This document shows, piece by piece, positions 5,110-58,506 of a DNA stretch of 64,000 nucleotides (its first letter is position 1; every line of letters starts with the position of its first letter). The position numbers were made by a program, and so were the translations under genes. The notes below the pieces were generated by a model that ran no database searches, was not told where the DNA came from, and was given only the letters and a program-made list of their open reading frames with translations. Source of the stretch: a virus. Taxonomy: Duplodnaviria; Caudoviricetes. Location: IMG/VR virus record IMGVR_UViG_3300021387_000299, positions 1 to 64,000 of that record. One strand, written 5' to 3'.

Positions 5110-5185
5110 CTCCTCTTAGCTCAGTTGGATAGAGCACTGGTCTACGAAACCAGGTTTTGCATAGGTTCGAATCCTATAGAGGAGA
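5110..5185 (+). tRNA. tRNA-Arg(ACG)
   Basis: ctggt-ctACGaa-accag. Confidence 0.93.
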
Positions 5186-5213
5186 CTATTTATTATGTAG
5201 AAAGGAGGTTAAA

Positions 5214-5726
5214 ATGCAGATAACCGAGGATACTTTGTTCCGCAACATGTCGCAACAGAATATTACATTCGATATGATTGCTGATAAAATTGTTGAATGG
5301 ATAAACCAACAGCCAGATAGGGATTATGTTCTTGCTATTGGAACAGACTCTCAAACTTGCGCGGAAACTAAAGTAGTATTATCTATTACTTTACATCGGT
5401 TACATAATGGAGGAATTTTCTTTCTACATTCAACTTATCACAAAGCGTACAAACATAACCAGCTGCATCAGAAACTATATGAAGAGACTCAAGCATCTCT
5501 TGATGCCGCAGAGATTTTACTTGAAAAGTTAAAATTACGAGGTTTGGACATACAAGATAAATCTTCTAACGTCCATCTTTCAATTCATATGGATATTGGC
5601 GAGCACGGTCCAACTAGCAAATATATTCAAGAACTAGAGGGATGGGTTCGCGCAACAGGTTATGACTATGAGATTAAACCAAACTCATATGCCGCTTCAA
5701 CTATCGCTGATAAGTATTCAAAATAA
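5214..5726 (+). CDS. RNase H-like YkuK/DUF458 family protein
   Basis: LAIGTDSQ, IHMDIG, IKPNSYAASTIAD motifs; RBS aaggaggt gives start MQITE. Confidence 0.85.
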   Translation: MQITEDTLFRNMSQQNITFDMIADKIVEWINQQPDRDYVLAIGTDSQTCAETKVVLSITLHRLHNGGIFFLHSTYHKAYKHNQLHQKLYEETQASLDAAEILLEKLKLRGLDIQDKSSNVHLSIHMDIGEHGPTSKYIQELEGWVRATGYDYEIKPNSYAASTIADKYSK

Positions 5727-5737
5727 AAGGCAATTGT

Positions 5738-5938
5738 ATGAGAAAAGAAGATTATATTAAGACAATTAAGGTAAATGGCTATACTGTAGATATTGGTTTA
5801 GATGATTATGGTCAATGCTATTACTTTGAATATGTTGACAAAAATGGAAAGCTTCAAGAAGTAGGTTGCGGATCTTATAACTTCAATTATGAACAAGAAA
5901 TTAAAGATTATTTTAATATCCTAGAAAAATATAAATAA
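5738..5938 (+). CDS. hypothetical protein
   Basis: 66 aa ORF. Confidence 0.65.
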   Translation: MRKEDYIKTIKVNGYTVDIGLDDYGQCYYFEYVDKNGKLQEVGCGSYNFNYEQEIKDYFNILEKYK

Positions 5939-5993
5939 TTGATTTTTAAAAAAATTAATGATATAATATTTATATAAAGTGAAGGAGAAAAAG

Positions 5994-7233: not shown

Positions 7234-7285
7234 TTGAAAAATTAAAAAAAATATTATATAATATATATGTAAGATAAGGAAAGGA
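7234..7285 (+). promoter_or_regulatory. sigmaA promoter cassette, copy 2
   Basis: TTGAAA-17-TATAAT + RBS. Confidence 0.8.
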
Positions 7286-7383
7286 AATAAAAATTATGGA
7301 TATGGAGTTCTATGAAGATATTTACGATCCTGATTACATGGATATTGAAGCATTGATTGTAGATGCAATGGATTATGAATTAT

Positions 7384-7457
7384 GCGAGCATAGCTCAACA
7401 GGCTAGAGCGCAGTGCTGATAACGCTGAGGTTGGGAGTTCGAGCCTCTCTGTTCGCA
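7384..7457 (+). tRNA. tRNA-Ile(GAT)
   Basis: cagtg-ctGATaa-cgctg. Confidence 0.93.
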
Positions 7458-7461
7458 CTAT

Positions 7462-7537
7462 AAGGCAGAAACAGCAAAAACTGAAAATTATTAATGGACT
7501 AGACTTGTAAACTATAAACCACAATAATTCTGCCTTG
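7462..7537 (+). ncRNA. ACAGCAAA-stem RNA, copy 1
   Basis: aaggcagaa-ACAGCAAA...ttctgcctt-g. Confidence 0.7.
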
Positions 7538-7543
7538 AAATTT

Positions 7544-7620
7544 GGTCTCGTAGCGCAAATGGTTAGAGTATCGCCTTGTCACGGCGAAGGTTGCGGGTTC
7601 GAGTCCCGTCGGGACCGCCA
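7544..7620 (+). tRNA. tRNA-Asp(GTC), second copy
   Basis: tcgcc-ttGTCac-ggcga; CCA. Confidence 0.95.
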
Positions 7621-7632
7621 TAAATATTTAAA

Positions 7633-7733
7633 AAGTCGCTTACAGCAAAAAATATTTAGTAGACAAAAGGTAAGTCATTAATCTGAAAAATTAAGAAATG
7701 TCGGTTCGAATCCGACCTAAATAAAGCGACTTG
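7633..7733 (+). ncRNA. ACAGCAAA-stem RNA, copy 2, enclosing a complete tRNA-Phe(GAA)-like cloverleaf (7653-7724)
   Basis: aagtcgctt-ACAGCAAA...aagcgactt-g; inner tatttag/ctaaata, ttaat-ctGAAaa-attaa, gtcgg-ttcgaat-ccgac. Confidence 0.8.
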
Positions 7734-7738
7734 CTTAT

Positions 7739-7811
7739 GCTGCCATCGAATAAGAGGTTAGTTCACAACCCTTTCAAGGTTGCAATACGGGTTCGAGTCC
7801 CGTTGGCAGTA
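7739..7811 (+). tRNA. tRNA-Glu(TTC)
   Basis: caacc-ctTTCaa-ggttg. Confidence 0.92.
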
Positions 7812-7844
7812 CTTAATTGGATTTACAGCTAGATCCAATTGCCT

Positions 7845-7921
7845 GGCGATATCGAATAATGGTTTAGTTCGCCACCCTCTCAAGGTGGAAATCGCGAGTT
7901 CGAATCTCCGTATCGTCACCA
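7845..7921 (+). tRNA. tRNA-Glu(CTC)
   Basis: ccacc-ctCTCaa-ggtgg; CCA. Confidence 0.9.
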
Positions 7922-7929
7922 TAACTTAA

Positions 7930-8049
7930 AAGACACGAACAGCAAACCATTAGGACTTTTAATCCCGATGTCGTAGGTTCGATTCCTACATTGTACGCCA
8001 AAACAGTACGATTAGCTCAAATGGTAGAGCGCGAGAAAAATGTGTCTTG
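7930..8049 (+). ncRNA. ACAGCAAA-stem RNA, copy 3, enclosing a circularly permuted tRNA-Lys(TTT) (YrlA-like architecture)
   Basis: aagacac...ACAGCAAA...gtgtctt-g; order is anticodon loop, T arm, acceptor 3' strand+CCA, linker, acceptor 5' strand, D arm. Confidence 0.8.
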
Positions 8050-8184
8050 ACAAGTAAATAAACGCGCAAACACATGGCGGGCAGAGCGTGCAGGGTCCAG
8101 CAAGCCTATGACAGCTAAGTAGATACTACTGGAACGAAGAAACCTCTATCGCGCGTGATCACTCTTAAATAGACCGCCACCAAC

Positions 8185-8255
8185 GCCGGATTAGTATAAT
8201 GGTATTACAGTTGACTTGTAATCATCTGATGGCAGTTCGATTCTGTCATTCGGCA
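8185..8255 (+). tRNA. tRNA-Thr(TGT)
   Basis: gttga-ctTGTaa-tcatc. Confidence 0.92.
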
Positions 8256-8463
8256 CTGACGCACAGAGGATAGATGAATAACTGTGGTTGTATGAAAATT
8301 CCTAGGTTCAATTCATATGATTAAGGAGCACTTCGTGTTCAATCTCTATCTAAAGGGTATAAACCTACCGGACATGGTGATTCTCCGGAGTCCGTGGCGT
8401 GCCCGCGGTATAAAATAATGGGCAATCCCGATGCTTGAAAGTAGAGCATCCTCACCACTCAAT

Positions 8464-8498
8464 AGGATAAGGATTCATTCCTTATCCTTTATTTTTTT
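8464..8498 (+). terminator. intrinsic terminator ending the tRNA array
   Basis: aggataagga/tccttatcct hairpin + T tract. Confidence 0.8.
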
Positions 8499-9736: not shown

Positions 9737-9765
9737 TTGAAAAATAAAAAAATATATTATATAAT
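9737..9765 (+). promoter_or_regulatory. sigmaA promoter of the TROVE-like gene
   Basis: TTGAAA-17-TATAAT. Confidence 0.8.
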
Positions 9766-9783: not shown

Positions 9784-9848
9784 AAGACCCCAACAGCAAA
9801 ATTGCATGTTGTATGCGGAGGCCTCGTGGCGTCTTTAAATGGGTCTTG
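9784..9848 (+). promoter_or_regulatory. ACAGCAAA-stem RNA, copy 4 (5' leader abutting the RBS of the TROVE-like gene)
   Basis: aagaccc-ca-ACAGCAAA...gggtctt-g-aaaggag. Confidence 0.75.
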
Positions 9849-9863: not shown

Positions 9864-11366
9864 ATGAGTACATTTTTAAACGCACTTCAGAATGAAACAA
9901 ATTTCACTTATACTGAAAATGGCGGCATTACTCATAAGACAACCAAGAGCGCATTGCTTGATATGTTTGCTATGGGTGCCGCTATGCGTAGTCGTTCTGA
10001 CGCAGACGTTATCCTTATGTTCCGCAATGCATATGCAGAAAATCCTACATATGCACTGAAGTGTCTCTTCTACATCAGAGACGTTCGTGGCGGACAGGGC
10101 GAACGTAGATTTTTCCGTCTTTGTATCAAGGATCTTGCTAAGCAGGATGCTGATGCAATGCGCAGAAATATTCAGAATATCCCTGAATATGGTCGCTGGG
10201 ATGACCTTTATGAACTTGTCAATACTCCAGTAGAAGGAGATATGTGGAAGTTCATGAAGCACCAGCTTGCTCTTGATACTCAGTCAAAGACACCTTCTCT
10301 GCTTGCAAAGTGGATGAAGTCTGAAAATACGTCTTCAAAGGAATCTCGTAGACTGGGTCGTCACACTCGCACACAGCTTCATATGACACCTCGTGAATAT
10401 AGAAAGACTCTTTCTATTCTTCGTGAGCGTATCAACGTTCTGGAAAGACTTATGAGTGCAGGCGAATGGGATAAGATCGAGTTCGATAAGATCCCTTCAA
10501 AGGCTGGTTTCATTTATAAGAATGCTTTCGCGCGCCACGACGTAGAGCGCATGAAGGCGGAAAAGAACGTTCAGTCATATCATGACTTCGTAAGAGATGA
10601 AACCAAGACTGTCAATGCTAAGGATCTCTATCCATATGAGATGGTTGCAAAGGCAATCTCTGCCTATGATCCCTACGATCGTTGGGGAGACTCTACCGAC
10701 AGAGCAGTTGTAAACAAGTACTGGAACAACTATATGCAGAGCTTTGATGACTTCAAGTTCAATGGCATCGCTGTTGTAGATACTTCTGGTTCTATGCGTT
10801 GGGCTGGTACTACTGTACATCCTATTGATGTAGCTATCTCACTTGGTATTTGTTGCGCGGAAAAGGCCCAGGGTCCTTTCCATGGACACTATATCTCTTT
10901 CGCTTCTCGTCCTCAGCTGATTAAGGTTGAAGGTGTTGACTTCGTTGACAAGGTTCAGAGAATCTATAAGACAAATCTTTGCGATAACACAAATATCGCA
11001 GGAGTATTTGATCTGCTTCTTAGTACTGCACTTAGAAATCACTGCGCACAGTCAGAGATTCCTGAGAATGTAGTTATTATCAGCGATATGGAGTTTGACT
11101 CTTGCTCAATTAGCTTCAGAAAGGCTAGAGCCGCAACAGAGCTGGAAAGAATTGCTCAGAAGTGGGCAGACAACGGCTATCAGATGCCTAACCTCATCTT
11201 CTGGAATGTAGACGCACGTCAGAACAACATTCCTGCGCTGGGTGAGAGAATCTCATATGTATCTGGTATGAGTCCTTCTATCTATCAGACAATCGCAACA
11301 GGCAAGACTGGTTACGATCTGATGATGGATAAGTTGAATTCTGCTCGTTACGATGCAGTAAAGTAA
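9864..11366 (+). CDS. DUF2828-family TROVE/Ro60-like protein with C-terminal vWA domain
   Basis: N-term TENG, RDVRGGQGER, YGRWDDL, LAKW; MIDAS DTSGS, ISDMEFD, IFWNV; RBS gives start MSTFL. Confidence 0.85.
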   Translation: MSTFLNALQNETNFTYTENGGITHKTTKSALLDMFAMGAAMRSRSDADVILMFRNAYAENPTYALKCLFYIRDVRGGQGERRFFRLCIKDLAKQDADAMRRNIQNIPEYGRWDDLYELVNTPVEGDMWKFMKHQLALDTQSKTPSLLAKWMKSENTSSKESRRLGRHTRTQLHMTPREYRKTLSILRERINVLERLMSAGEWDKIEFDKIPSKAGFIYKNAFARHDVERMKAEKNVQSYHDFVRDETKTVNAKDLYPYEMVAKAISAYDPYDRWGDSTDRAVVNKYWNNYMQSFDDFKFNGIAVVDTSGSMRWAGTTVHPIDVAISLGICCAEKAQGPFHGHYISFASRPQLIKVEGVDFVDKVQRIYKTNLCDNTNIAGVFDLLLSTALRNHCAQSEIPENVVIISDMEFDSCSISFRKARAATELERIAQKWADNGYQMPNLIFWNVDARQNNIPALGERISYVSGMSPSIYQTIATGKTGYDLMMDKLNSARYDAVK

Positions 11367-58411: not shown

Positions 58412-58506
58412 TGGCGGGGGATGTAGGACTCGAACCCACACCCGCGGCTATGGACACCGCTACCCTGGTTTTGAAGACCAGTGTGCTACCATTACACTAA
58501 TCCCCC
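58412..58506 (-). tRNA. opal suppressor tRNA(UCA), Trp-like body with a 25-nt extra arm
   Basis: Reverse complement: gggggat-ta-gtgt-aatggta-gcac-a-ctggt-ctTCAaa-accag-[25 nt]-gtggg-ttcgagt-cctac-atccccc-g-cca. Confidence 0.93.

What the first reader, a model, noticed from the sequence alone, without database searches (positions are those of the whole stretch)
7951..8036. Circularly permuted tRNA-Lys(UUU) inside ACAGCAAA RNA copy 3
Seen, in 5'-3' order: gga-ctTTTaa-tcc(cg) anticodon hairpin, variable loop, T arm gtagg-ttcgatt-cctac, acceptor 3' strand attgtac-G-CCA (7990-8000), linker aaaca, acceptor 5' strand gtacgat (8006-8012), D arm tagctcaaatggtagagc, then cgaga (4/5 complementary to tcccg). 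The 3' half therefore precedes the 5' half. Known: this T-acceptor-D order is the YrlA architecture; permuted tRNA genes occur in some algae and archaea; tRNA-Lys(UUU) is the target of PrrC and PARIS AriB. Inference: an unchargeable Lys decoy, or a precursor that needs ligation.
Basis: partly seen in the sequence, partly recalled or inferred. Interest (0 to 1): 0.85.

Follow-up and report, generated by a model that had tools for sequence, protein, structure and literature searches.

The report
Inside-out tRNA mimic in phage Y-RNA
This phage small-RNA gene is a tRNA written in permuted order, a known design of bacterial "Y RNAs", clamped by a conserved handle that travels with a Ro60-shaped protein gene; unusually it keeps a lysine-type anticodon hairpin and an encoded CCA, but the lysine identity is not conserved in relatives.

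Summary
Positions 7951-8036 carry an anticodon-like hairpin, T arm, acceptor 3' strand plus G-CCA, a 5-nt linker, acceptor 5' strand and D arm.

It is not two decayed tRNA halves. In 18 homologues, including mycobacteriophage Lumos, 96% of cells pair, all 7 acceptor pairs covary, and the invariant columns are the universal tRNA core bases.

The module is the cargo of a longer RNA (7930-8049) closed by a covarying helix plus ACAGCAA. It is one of four such RNAs in the window and six in the genome. It scores 33 bits against Rfam YrlA (cut-off 69).

The likely partner is the DUF2828/vWA protein 1.8 kb downstream. Its model matches Ro60 structures over its full length, and its mRNA leader carries a cargo-less handle.

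The best reading is a YrlA-type, tRNA-mimicking Y-like RNA. The 7-bp acceptor and encoded GCCA predict RNase P nicking, as shown for M. smegmatis YrlA.

Lysine identity is local: orthologues show UGU, GAG and UUG in the same hairpin. The decoy idea is open; a ligation precursor is unlikely.

This scan already noted the handle family on other DNA, in at least 58 genomes.

The parts
7930..7937 (+). Handle, 5' strand of the closing helix (AAGACACG)
   Evidence: Pairs with 8041-8048. The helix covaries among four window copies and 18 homologues.
7939..7946 (+). ACAGCAAA motif (CAGCAA invariant), single-stranded, just 3' of the helix. Presumed docking site of the Ro60-like protein.
   Evidence: Invariant columns C11-A16 in alignment A2. 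Present in all 128 strict handles of related loci, with none on the opposite strand. Also found in Lumos, Listeria and FelixO1-like phages.
7948..7970 (+). Anticodon-arm-like hairpin: CATTAGGA / loop CTTTTAA (7956-7962) / TCCCGATG, with one A.C mismatch
   Evidence: MFE fold. The stem covaries in orthologues L009, L090 and L007, while the 7-nt loop keeps Y32-U33...R37 but changes its triplet.
7973..7989 (+). T arm GTAGG-TTCGATT-CCTAC
   Evidence: 100% of cells paired and 4 of 5 pairs covary. G53, T54, T55, C56, A58 and C61 are invariant.
7990..7996 (+). Acceptor 3' strand ATTGTAC
   Evidence: Pairs 7/7 with 8006-8012. All 7 pairs change on both sides among homologues.
7997..8005 (+). Acceptor loop: discriminator G, CCA (7998-8000) and 5-nt linker AAACA. 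The predicted RNase P site lies between 8005 and 8006.
   Evidence: Sequence. R-CCA at the same place in 12 of the 24 parsed modules, 2 of them doubtful parses. The cleavage itself is inferred from M. smegmatis YrlA (PMC4201824).
8006..8012 (+). Acceptor 5' strand GTACGAT
8013..8031 (+). U8-A9, D arm GCTC-AAATGGTA-GAGC, and G26
   Evidence: U8, G10, A14, G18, A21 and C25 are invariant in A2. The D stem is 98.6% paired.
8032..8040 (+). 3' linker CGAGAAAAA. CGAGA could alternatively pair with TCCCG.
   Evidence: The alternative pairing is possible in the window and L090 but not in L009 or L007. The MFE prefers the hairpin.
8041..8049 (+). Handle, 3' strand TGTGTCTT plus conserved G
7462..7537 (+). 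Sister handle RNA, copy 1. The cargo is a short stem-loop with loop CTTGTAA.
7633..7733 (+). Sister handle RNA, copy 2. The cargo is a whole tRNA-like cloverleaf in normal order (GAA loop).
9784..9848 (+). Handle copy 4, in the 5' leader of the Ro60-like mRNA. It ends 2 nt before the RBS AAAGGAG and is a candidate autoregulatory site.
   Evidence: Conserved at the same place in L007, L008, L009 and L087-L091.
9864..11366 (+). Ro60-like protein gene (Pfam DUF2828 + DUF7788/vWA). The likely start is ATG 9864, not 9813.
   Evidence: Pfam hits. Model pLDDT 83.7. The top 13 PDB matches are all Ro60/TROVE over the full length. The MIDAS motif D323-S325-S327 is invariant. Start codon.
7234..7262 (+). 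Promoter-like site (TTGAAA-17-TATAAT) of the tRNA / handle-RNA operon
   Evidence: This is a consensus match only.
8464..8497 (+). Intrinsic-terminator-like hairpin plus T run, closing the operon

Best explanation
The element is the tRNA-mimicking cargo of a phage Y-like RNA of the YrlA design. It is transcribed inside a tRNA operon (about 7270-8497) and released by the enzymes that trim the flanking tRNAs.

The RNA spans 7930-8049. Its two ends pair into a short helix (AAGACACG / TGTGTCTT) followed by single-stranded ACAGCAA. This 'handle' is the likely docking site for the phage's own Ro60-shaped ring protein (DUF2828 + vWA, 9864-11366). That protein's mRNA leader carries a cargo-less copy of the handle.

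Between the handle strands sits a complete cloverleaf in permuted order: anticodon-like hairpin, T arm, loop-closed 7-bp acceptor, D arm. It keeps every universal tRNA core base, so it should fold into the tRNA L-shape and be recognised by tRNA-binding enzymes.

The acceptor is 7 bp with G1-C72 and an encoded G73-CCA. I therefore predict that RNase P nicks it between 8005 and 8006, and that 3' trimming leaves a two-piece RNA with a free CCA end, still held on the protein by the handle.

The particle most likely acts on tRNA metabolism during infection. It could tether the ring to a tRNA-recognising factor, or compete for one.

Shown: the sequence, the fold by covariation, the handle family, its linkage to the gene, and the Ro60-like fold of the protein model. 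Inferred: protein binding, RNase P nicking and the cellular role.
For: - Architecture and register.
- Sub-threshold but specific Rfam YrlA match: 33.2 bits, E 3e-5.
- Covariation on 18 modules: 96% paired, 19 of 24 pairs with double changes, all 7 acceptor pairs covarying, and slid controls at 32-46%.
- Invariant columns are U8, G10, A14, G18, A21, G53, T54, T55, C56, A58 and C61, plus CAGCAA.
- Four handles in the window have covarying stems, and two more lie at 170-172 kb of the record.
- Related loci hold 128 strict handles in 61 of 80 loci, all on the gene strand with none on the opposite strand; 98 lie upstream and 4 downstream.
- The same handle flanks DUF2828 genes in mycobacteriophage Lumos, a Listeria P100-like phage and a FelixO1-like coliphage. 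The Lumos middle copy also hits YrlA.
- The protein model matches Ro60 structures over its full length: the top 13 hits have E from 8.5e-9 to 7e-6 and TM 0.45-0.60.
- RtcB is encoded in the same genome.
- Literature: YrlA RNAs are Ro60-bound permuted tRNA mimics, and M. smegmatis YrlA with a 7-bp stem is RNase P-cleaved and CCA-tailed (PMC4201824; bioRxiv 10.1101/312249). In P100-like phage CKA15, three very highly transcribed regions lie within 2 kb upstream of the Rsr-like gene CKA15_055 (PMC12282133).
Against: - The Rfam score is less than half the YrlA gathering score.
- The canonical Ro-binding motif GNCGAAN0-1G is absent.
- Pfam TROVE does not hit anything in the genome, so the partner is Ro60-like by predicted fold only.
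- No binding, expression or processing data exist for this phage.
- CCA is present in only one of the four closest orthologues. It may therefore be a relic of a tRNA-dimer origin rather than a functional end.
- The gene lies 1.8 kb away, not adjacent.
Confidence: 0.72

Rival explanations
1. Anticodon-nuclease decoy or sponge. This is a specific version of the cargo's role and is compatible with the RNP reading. The hairpin displays a tRNA-Lys(UUU) anticodon loop on a tRNA-shaped body, so that host tRNA-cleaving defence nucleases (PrrC- or PARIS AriB-like) bind or cut it instead of real tRNA. Phage RtcB and the Ro60-like ring might then re-seal or dispose of it.
For: - Of the 30 seven-nt loops in handle cargos that are not T loops, 19 fit the anticodon-loop signature Y-U-NNN-R-N.
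- Among 54 distinct stem-loop mimics the commonest triplets are UUU (9), UGU (4), GUA (4), GUU (3) and UCU (3). AriB cleaves tRNA-Lys(UUU), Thr(UGU) and Asn(GUU) (PMC12409363, PMC11464382).
- The hairpin is the best-conserved cargo part between the window and L009, while the acceptor and T stems have diverged.
- Several sister RNAs carry nothing but such a stem-loop.
- RtcB is present.
Against: - The A/T-rich composition itself favours UUU-type loops.
- The counts are small and phylogenetically redundant.
- Most permuted modules in other lineages carry a tetraloop hairpin instead of an anticodon loop.
- The host, and any nuclease it encodes, are unknown.
- The stem has an A.C mismatch.
- No experiment bears on this.
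Confidence: 0.15
2. A true circularly permuted tRNA gene. The handle is cut off and the 26/27 ends are joined, for example by phage RtcB. RNase P and 3' trimming then open the acceptor, giving a functional tRNA-Lys(UUU).
For: - All four arms are in register, and ARAGORN calls the re-ordered sequence tRNA-Lys.
- G-CCA and a 5-nt linker sit exactly where a tRNA end would be.
- RtcB is encoded.
- The L030/L038/L080 relatives keep a full tRNA-Tyr feature set: GUA, long variable arm and A73-CCA.
Against: - A normal tRNA-Lys(ttt) exists at 931-1003.
- The triplet differs in each orthologue.
- Many handle RNAs have cargo that can never yield a tRNA, namely tetraloop hairpins and bare stem-loops, and one handle sits in an mRNA leader.
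- No tRNA splicing endonuclease is found and there is no bulge-helix-bulge motif.
- The anticodon stem has an A.C mismatch, and G73 is unusual for tRNA-Lys (the latter from my own knowledge).
Confidence: 0.06
3. Passive scaffold. The tRNA fold serves only to get the handle RNA processed by tRNA enzymes and to shield it from exonucleases. The anticodon-like loop and CCA are relics of an origin from a tRNA dimer.
For: - Chen et al. proposed such a protective role (PMC4201824), and a tRNA-dimer origin model is cited in 10.1101/312249.
- CCA and the triplet are not conserved among the closest orthologues.
- Cargo is highly interchangeable across the family.
Against: - The hairpin stem and loop size are conserved and covary.
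- The loop sequence GCCATGAATA is shared by modules with unrelated acceptor stems.
- R-CCA occurs in 12 of the 24 parsed modules, against about 1 in 64 expected by chance (my arithmetic).
- Cargo-less and short handles exist, so a tRNA body is not needed for the handle as such.
Confidence: 0.07

Closest known systems
YrlA-type Y RNAs bound by Ro60/Rsr in bacteria and mycobacteriophages (Rfam RF02553; Chen et al. 2014, PMC4201824; Wang et al. 2018, bioRxiv 10.1101/312249)
   Same: - T arm, then loop-closed acceptor stem, then D arm, with the tRNA core bases.
- The 5' and 3' ends pair into a terminal stem, with a short conserved single-stranded motif next to its 5' strand.
- Encoded on the same strand within 4 kb of a Ro60-shaped protein gene, in tandem with shorter sister RNAs (as with YrlB).
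- The 7-bp acceptor resembles the M. smegmatis YrlA that RNase P nicks.
- YrlA RNAs are already described as resembling circularly permuted tRNAs.
   Different: - It scores 33 bits against a gathering score of 69.
- The motif is ACAGCAA, not GNCGAAN0-1G.
- The partner hits Pfam DUF2828/DUF7788, not TROVE.
- It has an anticodon-arm-like hairpin with a canonical 7-nt loop, and G-CCA is written in the gene. Salmonella YrlA lacks both an anticodon loop and a free CCA.
- It is embedded in a phage tRNA array.
Circularly permuted tRNA genes of Cyanidioschyzon merolae and some archaea (from my own knowledge of Soma et al. 2007; mentioned in 10.1101/312249)
   Same: The 3' half is encoded before the 5' half, with a short intervening sequence at the acceptor ends. 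Re-ordering gives a normal cloverleaf.
   Different: Those genes use a bulge-helix-bulge motif, a splicing endonuclease and a ligase to make a circular intermediate and a working tRNA. Here there is no such endonuclease, the triplet drifts among orthologues, and the flanks form a protein-type handle shared with non-tRNA cargo.
Thermus phage phiLo Ro60 with Yrl1/Yrl2 (PMC12135203)
   Same: A phage-encoded Ro60-fold protein with tandem Y-like RNAs encoded upstream on the same strand. Its structures (9KOP, 9L5Y) are among the best fold matches of the window protein.
   Different: The phiLo RNAs were picked by the CGAA motif and a stem-bulge-stem shape. No tRNA-like module or ACAGCAA handle is reported there.
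Phage tRNAs that neutralise anticodon nucleases (T5 tRNA-Lys/Thr/Asn against PARIS AriB; PMC11464382, PMC12409363)
   Same: A phage-encoded RNA carrying a Lys(UUU) anticodon loop, inside a large phage tRNA array.
   Different: The T5 molecules are ordinary decoding tRNAs that escape cleavage. This one is permuted, handle-clamped and not shown to be cleaved, charged or protective.

Membership tests
YrlA (Rfam RF02553) | T arm, loop-closed acceptor-like stem and D arm in that order, with tRNA core nucleotides | tested here: met
YrlA (Rfam RF02553) | Score at or above the curated gathering threshold (69 bits) | tested here: not met
   33.2 bits, E 3e-5. The Lumos relative scores 39.3 bits.
YrlA (Rfam RF02553) | GNCGAAN0-1G motif near the 5' end (proposed Rsr contact; PMC4201824) | tested here: not met
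   The sequence 7930-7947 has no match. ACAGCAA occupies the equivalent place.
YrlA (Rfam RF02553) | Terminal stem formed by the 5' and 3' ends | tested here: met
   7930-7937 pairs with 8041-8048, and the helix covaries.
YrlA (Rfam RF02553) | Encoded within about 4 kb of, and on the same strand as, a Ro60 orthologue | tested here: inconclusive
   The partner gene lies 1.8 kb downstream on the same strand and is Ro60-like by predicted fold. It does not match Pfam TROVE.
YrlA (Rfam RF02553) | Physically bound by the Ro60-type protein | not testable with these tools
   Only genomic linkage is available.
Circularly permuted tRNA gene (C. merolae type) | 3' half upstream of 5' half; re-ordering gives a canonical cloverleaf | tested here: met
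   ARAGORN calls the re-ordered sequence tRNA-Lys(ttt).
Circularly permuted tRNA gene (C. merolae type) | Processing motif and splicing endonuclease that join the ends | tested here: not met
   PF01974 is absent from the genome. The flanks form a plain helix plus ACAGCAA, not a bulge-helix-bulge.
Circularly permuted tRNA gene (C. merolae type) | Yields a mature decoding tRNA of fixed identity | tested here: inconclusive
   The product is not testable here. Against this feature, the triplet differs in each orthologue (UUU, UGU, GAG, UUG).
tRNA-Lys(UUU) | UUU anticodon in a 7-nt loop on a 5-bp stem | tested here: inconclusive
   The loop CTTTTAA is identical to that of the phage tRNA-Lys. The stem has only 4 of 5 pairs (one U.G and one A.C mismatch).
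tRNA-Lys(UUU) | A73 discriminator (bacterial LysRS identity element; my own knowledge) and kinship to a tRNA-Lys | tested here: not met
   The discriminator is G7997. The phage tRNA-Lys has A. tRNA-Lys is not among the 8 nearest phage tRNAs.
Ro60 / TROVE proteins (partner gene) | HEAT-repeat ring plus C-terminal vWA domain with a MIDAS motif | tested here: met
   The model has pLDDT 83.7. The top 13 PDB matches are all Ro60, aligned over 517-584 columns. DxSxS is invariant.
Ro60 / TROVE proteins (partner gene) | Match to Pfam TROVE (PF05731) | tested here: not met
   No match in the genome. Pfam gives DUF2828 + DUF7788.

The most novel reading that the evidence does not exclude
The RNA is a renewable bait. 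RNase P opens the acceptor, so a two-piece, CCA-ended tRNA-Lys look-alike stays clamped on the Ro60-like ring. There it draws tRNA-Lys-specific defence nucleases, or LysRS and EF-Tu, away from real tRNA, and phage RtcB re-seals it. Sister RNAs would present Thr-, Tyr-, Asn- or Phe-type loops in the same way. The handle family would then be a programmable anti-defence display system.
Probability: 0.12. Interest if true: 0.85.

Novelty: new variant of a known kind. Interest (0 to 1): 0.55.

Why it matters
Y RNAs with tRNA-like modules are known, but what the tRNA-like part is for remains an open question. This variant keeps features that canonical YrlA has lost: an anticodon-type hairpin, a 7-bp acceptor and an encoded CCA.

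It belongs to a handle family that sits beside a Ro60-shaped protein gene in phages as distant as mycobacteriophages, Listeria P100-like phages and FelixO1-like coliphages. The last group infects E. coli K-12, so binding, RNase P nicking, charging and protection against tRNA-cleaving defence systems can all be tested in standard laboratory strains.

If the cargo loops track the targets of anticodon nucleases, this would link Ro60-type particles to the phage-host conflict over tRNAs.

Tried and rejected
**Readings considered and rejected**
- Two adjacent decayed tRNA halves: rejected. No D arm precedes the hairpin and no T arm follows the D arm, and the acceptor pairing covaries at all 7 positions.
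- Permuted or two-piece tmRNA: rejected. There is no Rfam tmRNA match here, and a standard tmRNA lies at 2276-2715.
- Any other Rfam family for the handle: none was found at E up to 10.
- Descent from the phage's own tRNA-Lys: no support. The nearest phage tRNAs are Met, Tyr and Asn (my slice dropped two bases of the stem, which does not change the ranking).

**Searches that led nowhere**
- More close orthologues by DNA pattern: the hairpin pattern gave only L009 and one chance coding hit. The hairpin-plus-T-arm pattern gave 48 stretches, all ordinary tRNAs without a handle.
- Contigs of the closest protein relatives either start at the gene or have other genes within 3 kb upstream.
- PDB sequence search with the protein gave nothing. 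Only the fold search showed the Ro60 likeness.
- A literature search for DUF2828 returned only unrelated plant and tardigrade papers.
- The RNA ligase families PF09511 and PF09414 gave nothing usable.

Full report
**Observation**

In order it holds:
- a hairpin, TAGGA / CTTTTAA / TCCCG, which can extend to CATTAGGA / TCCCGATG (7948-7970);
- the T arm, 7973-7989;
- the acceptor 3' strand ATTGTAC, followed by G and CCA (7990-8000);
- the linker AAACA;
- the acceptor 5' strand GTACGAT (8006-8012);
- TA, the D arm (8015-8030), G, and CGAGA.

The two acceptor strands pair at all seven positions. ARAGORN and the Rfam tRNA model ignore the region as it stands. Rfam's YrlA model aligns 7949-8054 end to end at 33.2 bits, E 3e-5, which is below its 69-bit threshold. 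The minimum-energy fold keeps every helix plus an outer stem joining 7930-7937 to 8041-8048. When the two halves are re-ordered in a script, ARAGORN calls a tRNA-Lys(ttt).

**Setting in the window**

The window is the start of a 177,819-base IMG/VR phage record. Its first 8.3 kb hold 22 tRNA genes and a tmRNA. The element lies between tRNA-Glu(ctc) and tRNA-Thr(tgt). A promoter-like site (7234-7262) and a terminator-like hairpin (8464-8497) bracket the stretch.

The element is the third of four RNAs in the window built on one frame: AAG + helix + 0-2 nt + ACAGCAA ... helix' + CTTG. The helices differ in sequence but all pair: AAGGCAGAA, AAGTCGCTT, AAGACAC and AAGACCC.
- Copy 1 (7462-7537) carries a short stem-loop.
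- Copy 2 (7633-7733) carries a whole tRNA-like cloverleaf in normal order.
- Copy 3 is the present element.
- Copy 4 (9784-9848) lies between a promoter-like site (9737-9765) and the ribosome-binding site of the next gene.

Two more handles lie at 170,380-170,445 and 172,297-172,438 of the record, among further tRNAs.

**The neighbouring protein**

The gene after copy 4 has its likely start at ATG 9864. Homologues begin there, and residues 1-17 of the longer frame are disordered in the model. It matches Pfam DUF2828 and DUF7788. It has no sequence match in the PDB, and Pfam TROVE finds nothing in the genome.

An AlphaFold model built on 34 homologues has mean pLDDT 83.7. Its top thirteen PDB matches are all Ro60/TROVE proteins, aligned over 517-584 columns: Xenopus, human, Deinococcus and Thermus phage phiLo (E from 8.5e-9 to 7e-6, TM 0.45-0.60). 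Lower matches cover only the vWA domain. The MIDAS motif DxSxS is invariant. The protein is therefore Ro60-shaped. Deposited mycobacteriophage records already label homologues 'Ro-like RNA binding protein'.

**Comparative evidence for the RNA**

The protein fetched 80 related viral loci. A strict scan required a helix of at least 7 bp starting AAG, then CAGCAA, a complementary strand ending CTT, and a following G. It found 128 handles in 61 of the 80 loci, all on the gene strand. None was found on the opposite strand of the same 1 Mb. In loci with full flanks, 98 lie upstream of the gene and 4 downstream.

Twenty-four parsed elements (22 after setting aside two doubtful parses) carry the same permuted T arm, acceptor and D arm module. 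I aligned 18 of them, including the one next to the DUF2828 gene of mycobacteriophage Lumos.
- 96% of cells pair, against 32-46% when the partners are slid.
- 19 of 24 pairs change on both sides, including all seven acceptor pairs.
- No shuffle out of 500 reaches the observed values.
- The invariant columns are CAGCAA plus U8, G10, A14, G18, A21, G53, T54, T55, C56, A58 and C61, which are the universal tRNA core.

**Is it a tRNA-Lys?**

Syntenic orthologues have the same four-RNA order (L009, L090/L091, L007). They keep the hairpin by covariation: CATTAGGA/TCCCGAGG, ATATTTGGA/TCCCGATAT and TCTCGG/CCCTGAGA. They also keep a 7-nt loop with pyrimidine-32, U33 and purine-37.

The triplet, however, reads UGU, GAG and UUG. 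Another lineage (L030, L038, L080) has GUA with a long variable arm and A-CCA, which is a full tRNA-Tyr feature set. Most other lineages have a tetraloop hairpin at this place.

In the window element the discriminator is G, whereas the phage's own tRNA-Lys (931-1003) has A. The module is no closer to that tRNA than to others. 'Permuted tRNA-like with a Lys-type loop' is therefore accurate. 'A tRNA-Lys gene' is not supported.

**The CCA**

A purine followed by CCA directly after the acceptor 3' strand occurs in 12 of the 24 parsed modules, against roughly 1 in 64 by chance (my arithmetic). The loop GCCATGAATA is shared by modules with unrelated acceptor stems. Among the four closest orthologues, though, only the window has CCA.

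Chen et al. showed that M. smegmatis YrlA, the one tested YrlA with a 7-bp stem, is cut by RNase P at the tRNA position in vitro and in vivo, and then carries CCA (PMC4201824). The window RNA has the 7-bp stem, G1-C72 and G73-CCA already written. I therefore predict a nick between 8005 and 8006 and a free CCA end. This is an inference.

**Linkage beyond this phage group**

The same helix + ACAGCAA frame occurs in distant phages:
- three times directly downstream of the DUF2828 gene of mycobacteriophage Lumos, where the middle copy has the permuted module and scores 39 bits on YrlA;
- three times directly upstream of the gene in a Listeria P100-like phage;
- four times in the tRNA array next to the gene in a FelixO1-like coliphage.

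For the related Listeria phage CKA15, a transcriptome study reports three very highly transcribed regions within 2 kb upstream of the Rsr-like gene CKA15_055 and suggests that they may be Y RNAs (PMC12282133). I did not map their coordinates onto the handles.

**Mechanism and rivals**

My best reading (0.72) is a Y-like ribonucleoprotein. The handle docks the Ro60-like ring, and the handle in the protein's own mRNA leader suggests feedback control. The permuted cloverleaf is the effector module that mimics tRNA, probably nicked by RNase P. The rest of the probability is split among three rivals.
- Decoy for anticodon nucleases (0.15). This is a special case of the cargo's role and has suggestive support. 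Of the 30 seven-nt cargo loops that are not T loops, 19 fit the anticodon-loop signature. The commonest triplets are UUU, UGU, GUA, GUU and UCU, overlapping the AriB targets Lys, Thr and Asn (PMC12409363). RtcB is encoded. A/T bias, small numbers and the unknown host keep this speculative.
- True permuted tRNA gene matured by ligation (0.06). It fits the geometry. It does not fit the non-tRNA cargos, the drifting triplet, the missing endonuclease or the resident normal tRNA-Lys.
- Purely structural scaffold (0.07). This does not explain the conserved hairpin or the recurrent CCA.

**Comparison with the known**

YrlA RNAs are already described as resembling circularly permuted tRNAs with closed acceptor stems, lacking an anticodon loop and a free CCA (bioRxiv 10.1101/312249). 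Phage Ro60 proteins with Y-like RNAs are known from mycobacteriophages and Thermus phage phiLo (PMC4201824, PMC12135203).

This element works like a YrlA but fails three membership tests: the Rfam threshold, the GNCGAA motif, and a Pfam-TROVE partner. It also adds an anticodon-type hairpin and an encoded CCA. I file it as a new variant of a known kind.

My paper searches turned up no paper describing the ACAGCAA handle or its link to DUF2828. The family is therefore not new to the scan, and this report adds one well-resolved member.

**Limits**

The protein partner rests on a predicted fold and on genomic linkage. Whether the hairpin acts as an anticodon arm or as a variable arm cannot be decided from sequence.

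Noticed in passing
window 8050-8184: A G+C-rich stretch of about 135 nt without an ORF lies between the handle RNA and tRNA-Thr(tgt), inside the same operon. No Rfam match at E up to 10. It is a possible further small RNA.
   Followed up: no
window 8257-8463: About 200 nt without a listed ORF of 50 aa or more lies between tRNA-Thr and the terminator-like hairpin at 8464-8497. Only chance-level Rfam matches were found.
   Followed up: no
window 9784-9848: A cargo-poor handle sits in the 5' leader of the Ro60-like mRNA and ends 2 nt before the RBS. It is conserved at this place in L007, L008, L009 and L087-L091, and looks like an autoregulatory binding site.
   Followed up: partly
G000 170380-170445 and 172297-172438 (outside the window): Two further handle RNAs lie among five more tRNA genes at the far end of the record, with RtcB at 162127-163224. 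If the genome is circular, the tRNA / handle / repair region spans the record ends.
   Followed up: partly
window 58412-58506 (- strand): A 95-nt tRNA with anticodon TCA, called tRNA-SeC by ARAGORN and scoring 62 bits on the Rfam tRNA model. It is possibly a TGA suppressor. Earlier notes on this genome mention genes with in-frame TGA.
   Followed up: no
L096 4213-5428 (Escherichia phage Andreotti, FelixO1-like): Four handle RNAs (AGACC... / ...GGTCTGG) lie interspersed in the tRNA array beside the vWFA/DUF2828 gene; one has a permuted T-acceptor-D module. The phage grows on E. coli K-12, which makes it a convenient experimental system. A weak permuted-tmRNA match at 5757-5940 overlaps tRNA genes.
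   Followed up: partly
handle cargos of L007-L090: Bare anticodon stem-loop mimics recur with different stems but the same loops: CTTTTAA in at least four lineages, and also CTTGTAA, CTGTTAA, CTGGTAA and CTGTAAA.
   Followed up: partly
L087, L088, L089: Assembled contigs of the closest relatives (84-95% protein identity) begin just upstream of handle 4. Assemblies may break in the repeat-rich tRNA / handle region.
   Followed up: no
window 5157-5726: An ORF with a strong match to Pfam RNaseH_like (PF04308, 1.6e-42) lies inside the tRNA region.
   Followed up: no
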